Shown here: in pieces, positions 5,436-9,802 of the stretch
Numbering within the stretch: the stretch's first letter is position 1
Layout: every line of letters starts with the position of its first letter
IMG/VR virus record: IMGVR_UViG_3300027286_000002
DNA: 64,000 nucleotides
Strand: one strand, 5' to 3'
Source: a virus
Taxonomy: Duplodnaviria; Caudoviricetes
Notes under the pieces: generated by a model
What the model was told of the DNA's origin: nothing
The model's database searches: none
Seen by the model: only the letters and a program-made list of their open reading frames with translations
Position numbers and translations under genes: made by a program

Positions 5436-6143
5436 ATGAAAGCATTAAATTTAAGTCTATCTGAAATCAGATCTTTTTTAGAAAAGAAATATGGTAAAAC
5501 AGCTTTAAAAAAAGGTGTTTATTTTGATATGGATATGTATTGGGAAAGATATAATATTGAAATACCTTTAAATGAAGATAGGATCATTATAGTCGAAATC
5601 ATAGGTATAGATGAAAATAATTTACAAAACTTTAAAGGCTGGAAAGATAGTCTAGCAACAAAAGTTCAAGATCAAGATAAAGAAGGACTTCATTTAGCAT
5701 TAAGTAAAGAAGTAGATCTTTCTACAAATTGGAAAGACAATTTACTTAAAGCTATCAATGCAGTTCAATCTGAAGTTGCTTTAAAATCTAAAGAGAAAGT
5801 AAATGCAGATAAGTTATTAAAAGATCTTAGATCTACACCTATGTTTAACTTTGATCCTTTTTTAAAATCTTTAGAAAAGTATTTACTTGCACATGATACT
5901 TTAACACCTGCTCAACAGCAGGCATTTAATAAAGTTAAATGGCGATATACACCTCGAATTGCTTTAAACAAAAAACAAATTGATTTTCTTAAAGCAATGA
6001 ATACTTTACCTACAAATGAAATGGATACAAATGAAATTGAAACCATTTCTAAAATGTATGCAAAGGCTTGTGCAGGCACTACTTGGAATGATAATGAAAG
6101 AAATGAAGTTGCCTTTATTATGAAAAAGTATATTGCATTATGA
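5436..6143 (+). CDS. Hypothetical protein
   Basis: 235-aa ORF; contains a short helical module FLKSL..YL....LTPAQ. Confidence 0.65.
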   Translation: MKALNLSLSEIRSFLEKKYGKTALKKGVYFDMDMYWERYNIEIPLNEDRIIIVEIIGIDENNLQNFKGWKDSLATKVQDQDKEGLHLALSKEVDLSTNWKDNLLKAINAVQSEVALKSKEKVNADKLLKDLRSTPMFNFDPFLKSLEKYLLAHDTLTPAQQQAFNKVKWRYTPRIALNKKQIDFLKAMNTLPTNEMDTNEIETISKMYAKACAGTTWNDNERNEVAFIMKKYIAL

Positions 6144-6645: not shown

Positions 6646-6719
6646 TGCTCCTAACGAGATTTGAACTCGTGTTACTGCCTTGAAAGGGCAATGTCCTTAC
6701 CTGACTAGACGATAGGAAC
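6646..6719 (-). tRNA. tRNA-Glu (UUC), no encoded CCA
   Basis: Acceptor GTTCCTA/TAGGAGC, anticodon arm TTGCC-CT TTC AA-GGCAG, T arm ACGAG-TTCAAAT-CTCGT. Confidence 0.92.
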
Positions 6720-6844
6720 TTATCTTTAAGTGCATATAGGTTTTTAATCCACATCCACTTAAAAACTTTTCAACCAAACCCTAATAGATAACCTACAGGA
6801 TTATGTTTGTTATACTCATTTCTTTTTCATCATGCAATATAAAA

Positions 6845-6988
6845 TTACATAATGTTTTCAATTTCTTTTTTCTCTACACGATTTAAAGGTTTTGGACTGC
6901 TTTTAGTATAGATCGCAACTAATAAACTTAAAACAATAATTGTAATTGCTGTGTAATTTGCTAGCTTTGAGATTTGTGTGTTTGTCAT
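6845..6988 (-). CDS. Small single-TM protein (47 aa, below ORF-track cutoff)
   Basis: MTNTQISKLANYTAITIIVLSLLVAIYTKSS...; GGA SD upstream. Confidence 0.5.
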   Translation of the reverse strand: MTNTQISKLANYTAITIIVLSLLVAIYTKSSPKPLNRVEKKEIENIM

Positions 6989-7063
6989 TTTTTATGATCC
7001 TTTGGATTTGATTGGAAGGTATCTTTATTTATGACATAGTATTTTTAGTTATGCAAATATAAA

Positions 7064-7136
7064 TGGGTCGTTTGGGACTCGAACCCAAAACCTGAAGATT
7101 AAAAGTCTTATGATCTACCTATTGATCTAACGACCC
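7064..7136 (-). tRNA. tRNA-Lys (UUU), no encoded CCA
   Basis: Acceptor GGGTCGT/ACGACCC, D arm GATC/GATC, anticodon arm TAAGA-CT TTT AA-TCTTC, T arm TTGGG-TTCGAGT-CCCAA. Confidence 0.92.
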
Positions 7137-7176
7137 ATAGTCATAATGAATGGTCTTATGACTTGCGAAAAAACTT

Positions 7177-7287
7177 AAAGCTATATCTCACTACCTAAAA
7201 GAAAATGTGAGATTTGAACTCACATCACCTATATTGGCATTTTTACAATTTAAAATAATCTTCCCTTAAATTGTAAGACATAGCTTT
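7177..7287 (-). ncRNA. tRNA-like domain (D arm, stunted anticodon arm, T arm) capping a 30-bp helix
   Basis: T arm GTGAG-TTCAAAT-CTCAC, D arm TTTT/AAAA, acceptor GGAAGAT/ATTTTCT extended by 23 further positions; non-WC pairs are GU on the minus strand except one A.A. Confidence 0.65.
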
Positions 7288-7385
7288 TTCAGTATTTCTA
7301 TTTTCATTATACATATCCATTTTATTTTTTTCATTTTATTTTTTCATCTTATTTTAGAAAACATTTACATAAAGGATTTTCACCT

Positions 7386-7877
7386 ATGGACAACAGAGAA
7401 CTCATGGCAATTAGAATTGCTAGTATTTATTTAGAAAGCAAAGACAAAGACAAAGGCTTACCTAAAAAATACTTGTCAGGTCTTAAAGGTAAAGATAGAA
7501 AAAAAAGAGTAAATGAAATCGACAAAAGAAAAAATGAAACTGATCCAAAGAAAAAGTTTAAACCTTTCAAATCAGATAAAGGTGAATCCACTTCCAAAAG
7601 CCAATACTCTAAAACAGACATAGCTAAAAAGATCAGAGAAAAAATTGAAGGTCAAGGCAAAGATGCTTTCATTGAAGCATCATCTAAAGTATCAGGTGTA
7701 TCTAAATCTATTTTAAGTGAAGTTTATGCAAGAGGTGCGGCGGCATGGGCAACAGGACATAGACCGGGTGCTACTCAACAGCAATGGTCTATTGCTCGTG
7801 TTTATAGTTTCTTATCAGGTGGCAAAACTCAATCCACTGCTGACAAAGATCTAGCTGAAAAAGCTGGACTATTGTAA
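7386..7877 (+). CDS. Basic conserved viral protein (DUF5824-like)
   Basis: VYARGAAAWATGHRPGATQQQWSIARVYSF motif, recalled as DUF5824; RIAS near N-terminus. Confidence 0.65.
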   Translation: MDNRELMAIRIASIYLESKDKDKGLPKKYLSGLKGKDRKKRVNEIDKRKNETDPKKKFKPFKSDKGESTSKSQYSKTDIAKKIREKIEGQGKDAFIEASSKVSGVSKSILSEVYARGAAAWATGHRPGATQQQWSIARVYSFLSGGKTQSTADKDLAEKAGLL

Positions 7878-8669
7878 TTCTTTAAAGATTTGTAAATTCC
7901 ATTTACATTTAACACAAACTCCACACATATTCTTATATGGTGGCTTTTGCTTATTATAATGTGCTTTAAAAAACATCTCTCTCATATAACAAGATGCTGT
8001 GTATTCAAATAATCCCTTTTCTAATAAAACTTTCACTTTCTCTTTTCTAGGTACTGTTATATGACTAAACTTTAAAGCACCTACTTCTTTTCTTAAAACA
8101 TCTTCAAATAAATGATATGCTTTAGGTGTATCTGAATACATTGTTATACTGCCATCATCTATATGATCATTAATACAAATCACTGTACCTATCTTATGCT
8201 CTCTTATTAAATCTACCAATAACAATAAAGCATATTGATTTTTCACTACACTTTCTTTATCTATCTTATCTGACAGATATTGATCTTTATGTAGTAGCCT
8301 TAACTCACTTGGATGATCAATCACTGTCAAATTGAGATTTAGCTTTTCTTTTAAAACATTCACTGCCTTTAATTCTTTAGATGAGATAGCTGGATTAAGC
8401 ATCTTTATAAACACAGGATAAACTTCATATCCTAATTTAATATGTTCTAATAAAGACCATGTGCTATCTACACCACTTGAAAATAAGACCACTGCTTTCT
8501 TTTCATCTAAATCCTCAATAGGTTCTTTATAAATACTTTCTTCATCTATATATGAGATATTAACACCATGATATTCTGCTAAACCATCTGCATATGCTTT
8601 AAGAGAATAAGGCACTGTGTGTTCAGATTTTAAAGGTGTAAATAACTTATAGAACTCTTTTGCATTCAT
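7869..8669 (-). CDS. QueC-like PP-loop ATPase (7-cyano-7-deazaguanine synthase fold)
   Basis: VVLFSSGVDST PP-loop variant; SCY...CGVCVKC zinc motif. Confidence 0.75.
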   Translation of the reverse strand: MNAKEFYKLFTPLKSEHTVPYSLKAYADGLAEYHGVNISYIDEESIYKEPIEDLDEKKAVVLFSSGVDSTWSLLEHIKLGYEVYPVFIKMLNPAISSKELKAVNVLKEKLNLNLTVIDHPSELRLLHKDQYLSDKIDKESVVKNQYALLLLVDLIREHKIGTVICINDHIDDGSITMYSDTPKAYHLFEDVLRKEVGALKFSHITVPRKEKVKVLLEKGLFEYTASCYMREMFFKAHYNKQKPPYKNMCGVCVKCKWNLQIFKELQ

Positions 8670-9802
8670 GTGAGTTTCCTTTGTTTTAATTTGTTTAGTA
8701 AATCTGCATCCGTGTACAAGTCAAAAACTAAATGGATTCTTGTTTTGCCATTATTCACTACTCTATGTGGTTTTCTAGTATCTAAATACCAAAGTTCACC
8801 TTCTTTAAATTTAAAGACCTCTTTACCTGTCATGCCATATACTTCAAACCAACAATCATCATGTGTATCTATTGGTATATGAAATCTTGGTACTTCACCT
8901 ATGCCTATGCCACATTCACTATCTACTAAATCAGTATGTTGTTCAATAACTTTACCTGCATCTAGTTTCATTATCCGAACACGATCTACTTTAGCTGTCT
9001 TTGATACCTGCTTAATAATCTCTTTCACTTCAGGAAATAAATCATAAACACTTGTATCTTGAATATGGAAATCTTGACCTTTATGTTTTTCATGCCATTT
9101 GTCATTCATCTCTAAAGGTTTAATAATAAAGTTTGGATCAGCACTATATCCTCTTAATGATATAGCAGACCAACCACCATCTGCATTATAATTTGAATAG
9201 TGATTGGCAAAGTTCAGTTGAGATACCTTTTCTTTTAATGCTGTTATATCATAATGGAAATCAGTAAATTTAAAAGCACAGGCTATTTCATGTGGATCAG
9301 TATATAGGCAAATAGGCTCTTGATCAAATAATGAAAAAGATGGTTTCTTTTCTAGGTAATAGACACCAAAGCAATCACCAAAAGAATTAATCTTGCTACC
9401 TATTCGTGTAAATCCTAATTGTGTAATAGGTGTGAGATCACCATCATCCAGCCATAAGAGCCAAAGGTTTTCTGTTAAGCTATTAAGATAAGATATAAAG
9501 ACAGGTAAATCTCTAATTTGAACATAGCTTAATTCTATATCATTCGCTTGTTTTACTGCAAGTATATGATTTTTAGAAGAATAAACTTTGATTTTGGATG
9601 GTTTATTTGATTGGGAAACAAGTACATCATAAGCATCAGTTAAGATGAGTTCACCTGTAGAAAGATATTCTGCAATATTATTCTTTTTCATTTGCATGAA
9701 AGGTGAAATGATTTTCTCATTAAGAGTATCATATCTAGCTTGCAAGGATTTTAGGTATTCTAAATCATATCCTTTTTGCCATTCTTTAAGATCTTCGGAC
9801 AT
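8666..9802 (-). CDS. 2OG-Fe(II) oxygenase (Asp/Asn beta-hydroxylase family) with extra N-terminal domain
   Basis: RVRIMKL..G..IEQHTD (HxD), RFHIPI, GELW..DTRKPHRVVN...RIHLVFD. Confidence 0.8.
   Translation of the reverse strand: MSEDLKEWQKGYDLEYLKSLQARYDTLNEKIISPFMQMKKNNIAEYLSTGELILTDAYDVLVSQSNKPSKIKVYSSKNHILAVKQANDIELSYVQIRDLPVFISYLNSLTENLWLLWLDDGDLTPITQLGFTRIGSKINSFGDCFGVYYLEKKPSFSLFDQEPICLYTDPHEIACAFKFTDFHYDITALKEKVSQLNFANHYSNYNADGGWSAISLRGYSADPNFIIKPLEMNDKWHEKHKGQDFHIQDTSVYDLFPEVKEIIKQVSKTAKVDRVRIMKLDAGKVIEQHTDLVDSECGIGIGEVPRFHIPIDTHDDCWFEVYGMTGKEVFKFKEGELWYLDTRKPHRVVNNGKTRIHLVFDLYTDADLLNKLKQRKLT

What the first reader, a model, noticed from the sequence alone, without database searches (positions are those of the whole stretch)
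7177..7287. tRNA mimic: cloverleaf with stunted anticodon arm mounted on a 30-bp helix
Seen (minus strand): canonical T arm (GTGAG-TTCAAAT-CTCAC), D arm and 7-bp acceptor, but only 17 nt between D and T arms (canonical about 22-23), so no normal anticodon loop. The acceptor stem continues through the flanks for 30 positions in total (29 paired, one A.A). All seven wobbles are GU only on the minus strand, and a U6 tract follows shortly after. The flank complementarity argues against simple decay, and there is no free CCA end. Established: known tRNA mimics (tmRNA, circularly permuted YrlA Y RNAs) have different topology. Inference: a new elbow-mimic ncRNA, e.g. a decoy for tRNA-targeting defence nucleases or RNase P, or a structured precursor.
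Basis: partly seen in the sequence, partly recalled or inferred. Interest (0 to 1): 0.8.

Follow-up and report, generated by a model that had tools for sequence, protein, structure and literature searches.

The report
Anticodon-less, end-locked phage tRNA look-alike
A freshwater jumbo phage carries a conserved gene for an RNA that keeps the body and elbow of a tRNA, has only a stub where the anticodon arm should be and has both ends locked in a long helix, so it cannot decode and probably works by imitating tRNA shape.

Summary
On the minus strand, 7287-7177 folds into a cloverleaf (Rfam tRNA, 35.3 bits; ARAGORN silent). The anticodon arm is a 3-bp stem with a 6-nt loop. The acceptor stem runs on into a 30-position helix: 22 Watson-Crick pairs, 7 G.U and 1 A.A.

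It is not a decaying tRNA. I found the same element in at least six sequence variants from related uncultured freshwater jumbo phages. The acceptor/outer helix and the T stem covary: 14 of 26 pairs changed on both sides, 95% of cells paired, 0 of 500 shuffles as good. The D arm, stub and variable region are almost invariant, while neutral sites in the neighbouring gene are only 62% identical.

The outer helix is always present beyond the acceptor, but its length varies (about 4 to 23 bp). The element is single-copy and belongs to the phage tRNA cluster. In at least five contigs tRNA-Glu(UUC) starts 0-3 nt after it. One complete genome keeps it with no tRNA nearby.

No Rfam family other than tRNA matches, and I found no paper describing it. 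This scan has noted other anticodon-less phage tRNA look-alikes on other DNA. Function is inferred: most likely a stable, non-decoding mimic of the tRNA body; a cis processing or stability module is the main rival. No RNA data exist.

The parts
7306..7334 (-). Promoter-like site (ATGAAA, 17 nt, TATAAT, preceded by TG), 19 nt upstream of the helix
   Evidence: 10 of 12 matches. Such sites are no commoner here than in shuffles. A TGTATAAW box lies just upstream of the helix in L001 and L230 too, but not in the L236-type copies.
7265..7287 (-). 5' strand of the outer helix (23 positions beyond the acceptor)
   Evidence: The positions nearest the acceptor covary in homologs.
7258..7264 (-). Acceptor stem, 5' strand (positions 1-7)
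   Evidence: Rfam alignment. Five to six of the seven pairs changed on both sides among variants.
7240..7257 (-). U8-A9 and the D arm (UUUU / AANUUGUA / AAAA); one G remains in the loop, at the place of G19
   Evidence: Invariant in six variants except one loop position.
7227..7239 (-). U26 plus the stub that replaces the anticodon arm: 3-bp stem (RCC/GGU) and 6-nt loop
   Evidence: Stem and loop length are kept in all variants; loop letters vary (AAUAUA, AAUUUA, ACUCAU, ACUUAU).
7207..7226 (-). Variable region GAU and the T arm (5 bp, loop UUCAAAU)
   Evidence: Three T-stem pairs changed on both sides. The loop is UUYAAAU in all variants.
7177..7206 (-). Acceptor 3' strand (7206-7200) running without a break into the 3' strand of the outer helix (7199-7177)
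7168..7173 (-). U6 run 3 nt after the helix; a possible weak terminator, not conserved in homologs
7140..7162 (-). Small hairpin ending 3 nt before tRNA-Lys
7063..7137 (-). tRNA-Lys(UUU), next gene on the same strand
6646..6719 (-). tRNA-Glu(UUC), same strand. In related phages the tRNA look-alike abuts this tRNA directly.

Best explanation
This is a gene for a non-decoding RNA shaped like a tRNA, and it belongs to the phage's tRNA gene cluster.

Shown:
- The RNA keeps a full tRNA core: U8, A14, A21, one D-loop G at the place of G19 opposite Y56, a UUYAAAU T loop and a 7+5-bp acceptor/T stack.
- The anticodon arm is reduced to a fixed 3-bp/6-nt stub.
- The 5' and 3' flanks pair with each other beyond the acceptor stem.
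- This design is under strong purifying selection in several phage lineages.

Inferred:
- It is transcribed with the cluster. In the window type it may have its own promoter-like box.
- Where a tRNA follows directly, RNase P cleavage at that tRNA would set its 3' end.
- The extended helix leaves no single-stranded leader or 3' end. That should hinder RNase P and RNase Z from acting on the element itself, block CCA addition and charging, and shield the ends from exonucleases.
- The product would be a stable tRNA body that cannot enter translation. It would act in trans by occupying a protein that recognises the tRNA elbow and D arm. That could be a host tRNA-directed defence nuclease or toxin, or a tRNA-processing or tRNA-modifying enzyme.
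For: Structure and strand:
- The minus-strand fold has z = -6.2, and all seven G.U pairs exist on that strand only.
- Rfam's tRNA model scores 31-37 bits in three variants.

Conservation:
- Six variants were found in contigs from different samples and collections: window (identical copies in L094/L102/L116), L001, L230/L231, L236/L260/L261, L259 and L262/L263.
- On an alignment fitted to the model, 16 of 30 pairs changed on both sides.
- On a plain MAFFT alignment, 14 of 26 pairs changed on both sides, 95% of cells paired, 0 of 500 shuffles were as good, and slid controls gave 40-56% paired.
- The D arm, stub stem and variable region are invariant apart from two positions. Four-fold sites of the adjacent gene are 62% identical.

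Points favouring a specific gene product over a generic cut signal:
- It is single-copy in the window and in the complete 316-kb relative G001.
- G001 and L230 keep it with no tRNA next to it; the only normal tRNA detected in G001, tRNA-Met, lies 40 kb away.
- At the spot before tRNA-Glu where relatives carry the element, the window has a plain hairpin, yet it still keeps a full copy elsewhere.
- Acceptor letters change freely provided pairing is kept, so no fixed synthetase identity set is maintained.
Against: - No transcript, RNA ends or binding partner are known. No RNA run holds the element.
- The L230 variant has a purine-rich internal loop where acceptor pairs 1-5 should be, so a perfect acceptor stem is not essential.
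- The outer helix is as short as about 4-7 bp in some variants, so the locking may be weak there.
- Direct fusion to tRNA-Glu in five or more contigs fits a cis role equally well.
- No neighbouring protein gene with a telling function is conserved.
- The family was found only in one group of freshwater phages. It is absent from 42 related contigs, four of them near complete.
Confidence: 0.45

Rival explanations
1. It is a cis-acting processing or stability module, like the t-elements of plant mitochondria. The tRNA shape recruits RNase P or RNase Z to cut the cluster transcript. The helix then protects the new ends of the upstream or downstream RNA. The released RNA itself has no function.
For: - It always lies inside a unit with tRNAs or small ORFs.
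- tRNA-Glu starts 0-3 nt after the helix in L236 and L259-L263.
- Other tRNAs in the window are preceded by plain hairpins ending 3-5 nt before the mature 5' end, so a helix before a tRNA is a local design rule.
- Precedent: t-elements direct RNase P/Z cuts at mRNA ends (PMC1920247).
Against: - A cut signal needs only the acceptor/T-arm stack. Here the D arm, stub length and variable region are the most conserved parts.
- There is one copy per genome, not one at many gene junctions.
- A leader paired with the trailer should hinder RNase P, not help it (established knowledge of RNase P substrates; not tested here).
- The position in the operon is not fixed: it is first in the window, G001 and L230, and internal in L259-L263.
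Confidence: 0.3
2. It is a Y-RNA-like partner of a Ro60/Rsr protein (YrlA type): a stem formed by the two RNA ends with a tRNA-like module on top.
For: The overall layout is similar: a terminal stem plus a tRNA-like module. Some jumbo phages encode a TROVE/Ro protein with a tRNA-like partner (PMC7824862).
Against: - No TROVE gene in the complete relative G001.
- No match to any Rfam family except tRNA, so none to YrlA/Y RNA models.
- The stem letters are not conserved, so there is no fixed Ro-binding motif.
- The topology differs: here the ends leave through the acceptor stem, not through the anticodon stem.
Confidence: 0.04
3. It is a tRNA pseudogene in decay after a small deletion in the anticodon arm, and the flanking complementarity is accidental.
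For: The Rfam tRNA score is low. ARAGORN is silent. The loop has 6 nt.
Against: - The same stub is kept in six variants.
- The stems covary and the core is invariant while neutral sites are at 62% identity.
- A probable real relic before the window's tRNA-Glu has lost the T-loop consensus. That shows what decay looks like here.
Confidence: 0.03
4. It is a working but bizarre decoding tRNA, with a 3-4-bp anticodon stem and a 6-nt loop, used for recoding or frameshifting.
For: The third loop base is always U (like U33). The tRNA core is intact.
Against: - The three loop bases after that U differ between variants (AUA, UUA, CAU, UAU), so no anticodon is conserved.
- Acceptor letters are free to change, so no charging identity is conserved.
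- The 3' end is buried in a helix.
Confidence: 0.03
5. It is a DNA-level element: a cruciform, a recombination site or the inverted-repeat ends of a mobile element.
For: A 30-bp inverted repeat flanks the core. The element sits at different places in the cluster in different phages.
Against: - The seven G.U pairs are mismatches in DNA and on the other strand.
- Changes between variants keep RNA pairing, including G.U to A-U switches.
- There is a single copy, no target-site duplication was noticed, and no nuclease or transposase gene was recognised nearby.
Confidence: 0.02

Closest known systems
Canonical bacterial/phage tRNA (Rfam RF00005)
   Same: It has a 7-bp acceptor, U8-A9, a 4-bp D stem with an 8-nt loop, a 5-bp T stem with a UUCAAAU loop, and elbow-forming bases. 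It lies in a tRNA cluster. It scores above Rfam's gathering score.
   Different: The anticodon arm is a 3-bp/6-nt stub with no conserved anticodon. G18 is replaced by U. There is no unpaired discriminator or 3' end, because the acceptor runs on into a covarying helix. Acceptor letters are unconstrained.
Phage T4 species 1 RNA (rnaC), a stable RNA of unknown function in the T4 tRNA cluster
   Same: It is a phage-encoded, non-decoding RNA at a tRNA cluster. It has a canonical T arm next to a stem formed by the two ends. It is expressed and its function is still unknown (PMC9697503).
   Different: T4 rnaC is 139 nt, with large extra hairpins in place of the D and anticodon region. It does not match my model R2, so it is a different family.
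t-elements of plant mitochondria and similar tRNA-like processing signals (PMC1920247)
   Same: They are non-canonical cloverleaves inside polycistronic transcripts and could be handled by RNase P and RNase Z.
   Different: t-elements are dispersed cis signals whose ends coincide with mapped mRNA ends. This element is single-copy, has a strongly conserved D arm and stub, and has its ends sealed in a helix.
YrlA-type bacterial Y RNAs (Ro60/Rsr partners)
   Same: They have a terminal stem made by the 5' and 3' ends, carrying a tRNA-like module with D and T arms.
   Different: YrlA is circularly permuted, with the ends in the anticodon stem and the acceptor closed by a loop, and it needs Rsr. Here the ends leave through the acceptor, G001 has no TROVE gene, and there is no Rfam match.
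tmRNA tRNA-like domain
   Same: It is a tRNA mimic with an acceptor and a T arm.
   Different: tmRNA has a free CCA end, is charged with alanine, lacks a D stem and carries a tag reading frame. ARAGORN and Rfam find no tmRNA here.

Membership tests
tRNA (RF00005) | Covariance-model score above the curated threshold | tested here: met
   35.3 bits against a threshold of 29 in the window; 31.3 in G001; 37.1 in G044.
tRNA (RF00005) | Anticodon arm of 5 bp with a 7-nt loop carrying an anticodon | tested here: not met
   A 3-bp stem and 6-nt loop in all six variants, with loop letters not conserved. ARAGORN makes no call.
tRNA (RF00005) | Single-stranded discriminator and 3' end available for CCA addition and charging | tested here: not met
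   The bases after position 72 pair with the 5' flank in every variant.
tRNA (RF00005) | Elbow nucleotides (U8, A14, G18-G19 with U55-C56, U54-A58) | tested here: inconclusive
   U8, A14, A21, one G at the place of G19 and the UUYAAAU loop are present. G18 is U, and C56 is U in L001. No three-dimensional test was possible.
YrlA / Y RNA | Ro60/Rsr (TROVE) partner gene | tested here: not met
   No PF05731 match in the complete relative G001. The host genome is unknown.
YrlA / Y RNA | Match to Rfam Y RNA/YrlA models; permuted tRNA-like module | tested here: not met
   tRNA was the only relevant family found at E up to 10. The ends leave through the acceptor stem.
tmRNA | tRNA-Ala-like end plus a tag reading frame | tested here: not met
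   ARAGORN and Rfam find none.
t-element-like processing signal | RNA ends produced by RNase P/RNase Z at the element's borders | not testable with these tools
   No RNA run holds the element.
T4 rnaC (species 1 RNA) family | Sequence and structure homology to T4 rnaC | tested here: not met
   Model R2 gives no match in the T4 tRNA region. The resemblance is limited to the T arm, the end stem and the location.

The most novel reading that the evidence does not exclude
Phages deploy an end-locked tRNA body without an anticodon as a decoy or sponge. It would titrate a host protein that reads tRNA shape, for example an immune nuclease or toxin aimed at tRNA, or a tRNA-modifying or tRNA-processing enzyme. 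It would stay invisible to the ribosome, synthetases and anticodon nucleases. That would be an RNA-based counter-defence that travels with the replacement tRNAs tRNA-Lys(UUU) and tRNA-Glu(UUC).
Probability: 0.25. Interest if true: 0.85.

Novelty: new variant of a known kind. Interest (0 to 1): 0.62.

Why it matters
Phage tRNA genes are usually read as codon-usage helpers or as replacements for tRNAs cut by host defences. This RNA cannot decode, yet selection clearly maintains it in phage tRNA clusters. So these clusters also encode tRNA-shaped RNAs with other jobs, as the still unexplained T4 species 1 RNA hinted decades ago.

The design is simple and testable: an intact elbow, a stub in place of the anticodon arm, and sealed ends. 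It gives a defined construct for three questions:
- Which proteins read tRNA shape alone?
- Can RNase P, RNase Z and the CCA-adding enzyme be kept off by pairing leader with trailer?
- Do phages use RNA decoys against tRNA-directed immunity?

It also warns annotators. Rfam calls it a tRNA and ARAGORN calls nothing, and both answers miss what it is.

Tried and rejected
- Close relatives in cultured phages: blastn of the 1.2-kb region against 50,697 phage records hit only the two normal tRNAs.
- Whole genome of the window: not held.
- Synteny through the divergent DUF5824 gene: the 80 IMG/VR loci are mostly giant-virus contigs and have no element, except L001. Homologs at 66-80% identity have no element beside the gene.
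- Pattern scans: an exact T-arm pattern found nothing. A metagenome scan gave 78 loci: three copies identical to the window, the rest chance. A genome-contig scan gave 6 chance hits. A D-arm pattern gave 3 chance hits.
- 42 related jumbo-phage contigs (terminase 57-97% identical): no match with R1. With R2 there were only weak cross-hits; those I checked (L247-L250) coincide with ordinary tRNAs, Thr, Lys and Gly.
- RNA evidence: the only RNA run with shared words covers part of a tRNA-Lys from another organism.
- Ro/Y RNA, CCA-adding enzyme and RtcB in G001: none.
- Neighbouring small proteins: no Pfam match and no informative PHROG match.
- Terminator reading of the T arm plus U-rich acceptor strand: not conserved in homologs, so rejected.
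- RNase III substrate as the purpose of the helix: the helix is too short (about 11-14 bp in all) in the L236/L262 types to be a conserved requirement.
- A promoter right upstream as a general feature: seen in the window, L001 and L230, but not in the L236-type copies, which lie inside the cluster.
- Literature: three searches found no description of this design.

Full report
**What is there**

On the minus strand, window 7287-7177 reads as a cloverleaf set on a long helix.
- Rfam's tRNA model matches 7264-7199 at 35.3 bits (threshold 29). Only 6 nt stand where the model expects 13 in the anticodon arm.
- ARAGORN finds the two normal tRNAs downstream on the same strand, tRNA-Lys(UUU) 7137-7063 and tRNA-Glu(UUC) 6719-6646, but not this element.
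- The fold is far better than shuffles (z = -6.2) and much better than the plus strand (-39 against -24.5 kcal/mol).
- A U6 run follows 3 nt after the helix.
- The neighbouring tRNA genes do not encode CCA either, so the missing CCA says nothing.

**Where it comes from**

The window encodes a portal, large terminase and head protease. Its G+C content is about 31%. Its closest relative in IMG/VR is a complete 316-kb contig (G001). It is therefore an uncultured jumbo phage. The same DNA is held by 20 river, lake and freshwater runs.

**Homologs**

I found the element in six sequence variants:

| Variant | Place |
|---|---|
| Window type (identical copies in L094, L102, L116) | window 7188-7276(-) |
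| G001 | L001 2822-2910(-) |
| L230 (also L231) | L230 1999-2089(-) |
| L236 (also L260, L261) | L236 155-244(+) |
| L259 | 5906-5994(+) |
| L262 (also L263) | L262 5128-5216(+) |

- It is single-copy in the window and in G001.
- It was not found in 42 more distant relatives, four of them near complete. Those carry ordinary tRNAs.
- It was not found in cultured phages.

**Selection**

- On a plain MAFFT alignment of the six variants, 14 of 26 pairs changed on both sides and 94.9% of cells are paired. None of 500 shuffles reaches this, and sliding the partner gives 40-56% paired.
- The alignment of four variants fitted to the model gives 16 of 30 pairs.
- All the change lies in the acceptor/outer helix (11 of 14 pairs) and the T stem (3 of 5).
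- The D stem, the D loop (except one base), the stub stem, the three-base variable region and the T loop (except C56/U) do not vary.
- Four-fold sites of the adjacent DUF5824 gene are only 62% identical between the same genomes.
- The stub always has 3 bp and 6 nt, but its loop letters differ, so there is no conserved anticodon.
- The acceptor letters are free as long as they pair, so no charging identity is kept.
- The D loop reads AANUUGUA where normal tRNAs of related phages read AAUUGGUA. G19 is kept and G18 is lost.
- Two registers of the junction fit three of four deep variants each, and the data cannot separate them: a 7-bp acceptor with a 5-bp T stem, or 5 bp with 7 bp.
- In L230, acceptor pairs 1-5 are replaced by a purine-rich internal loop inside a much longer rod.

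**The outer helix**

Every variant has it, but its length varies:
- 23 positions beyond the acceptor in the window;
- 9 plus 5 in G001;
- a long interrupted rod in L230;
- 7 in L236/L260;
- 7 plus 4 in L259;
- about 4-5 in L262.

So the conserved feature is that the ends are paired and no single-stranded tail is left. The 30-bp length is not conserved.

**Context**

The element belongs to the tRNA cluster.
- In L259-L263 the order is tRNA-(Arg)-Tyr-Lys(UUU), a 44-47-aa ORF (in L259 a methyltransferase gene lies before it), the element, then tRNA-Glu(UUC) starting 0-3 nt after the helix, then a 143-aa ORF.
- In the window the order is the element, tRNA-Lys, a 47-aa ORF (6988-6845), a plain hairpin, then tRNA-Glu.
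- That hairpin aligns with the 3' half of the element of L260 and looks like a decayed second copy.
- In G001 and L230 the element is followed by 126/158-aa ORFs with no tRNA. The only normal tRNA detected in G001 is a distant tRNA-Met.
- A TGTATAAW box lies just upstream in the window, G001 and L230, but not in the internal copies.
- No conserved neighbour has a known function.

**Interpretation**

Shown: this is a conserved, strand-specific, structured RNA gene with a tRNA core, no anticodon and sealed ends.

Inferred: because the ends are paired, the usual maturation and charging steps should be hindered and the RNA should be stable. The full core, not just the acceptor/T stack, is conserved, and there is only one copy per genome. 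For those two reasons I favour a trans-acting mimic of the tRNA body that binds some protein reading tRNA shape (0.45). The main rival is a cis processing or stability module like mitochondrial t-elements (0.30; PMC1920247). A Ro/Y-RNA system, a pseudogene, an odd decoding tRNA and a DNA-level element are each unlikely for the reasons given under the rival explanations.

**Comparison with what is known**

- The closest published phage example is T4 species 1 RNA (rnaC). It sits at the T4 tRNA cluster, has a canonical T arm beside an end stem, is expressed and is still of unknown function (PMC9697503). It is not homologous by my model.
- YrlA Y RNAs share the layout of a stem plus a tRNA module, but they are permuted and need Ro, which G001 lacks.
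- Three literature searches found no description of this design.
- Earlier notes of this scan report other families of anticodon-less tRNA look-alikes in phages on other DNA. None shares sequence with this one. These are unchecked notes and I do not count them as evidence.

**Limits**

- No RNA data exist.
- The host is unknown.
- There are only six variants, three of them close to each other.
- E-values from my models are rough.

Noticed in passing
window 6722-6766 (-): A 17-bp hairpin ends 5 nt before tRNA-Glu, at the exact place where L260 and L262 carry the tRNA look-alike. MAFFT aligns it with the variable region, T arm and 3' acceptor strand of that element. It may be a decayed second copy whose T loop has lost the UUCAAAU consensus.
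   Followed up: partly
window 7140-7162 (-) and 6722-6766 (-): Both normal tRNA genes are preceded by a stable hairpin that ends 3-5 nt before the mature 5' end. This may be a local rule for protecting upstream RNA after RNase P cleavage.
   Followed up: partly
window 7063-7137 and 6646-6719 (-): The phage's tRNAs here are tRNA-Lys(UUU) and tRNA-Glu(UUC), the classic targets of anticodon nucleases. The tRNA-Lys is about 81% identical to tRNA-Lys of T5-like phages.
   Followed up: no
window 6845-6988 (-): A 47-aa ORF with a hydrophobic centre lies between tRNA-Lys and tRNA-Glu. An ORF of 44-47 aa stands after tRNA-Lys and just before the element in L259-L263 (in L259 with a methyltransferase gene in between).
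   Followed up: partly
window 7386-7877 (+): This is a DUF5824 protein. Most of its relatives in IMG/VR lie on giant-virus contigs (GVMAG names), so the family is shared between jumbo phages and giant viruses. A PHROG match links its C-terminal part to a cytidyltransferase family.
   Followed up: no
window 7869-9802 (-): A QueC-like gene and an Asp/Arg beta-hydroxylase-like gene form an insertion that the close relative G001 lacks at this place (compare).
   Followed up: no
L259 2436-4390; L260 2521-3977; L262 3074-4521: Tandem arrays of paralogous 152/158-aa proteins of unknown function (61-84% identical) lie just upstream of the tRNA cluster. G001 and L230 have them directly downstream of the element.
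   Followed up: no
Read laying records 15 and 23 (runs X19, X20) on window 7206-7258: Short contigs from river metagenomes match only the core of the element, with 8 differences, and diverge in the flanks. A second variant therefore co-occurs with the window phage in the same waters. Its sequence could not be retrieved.
   Followed up: no
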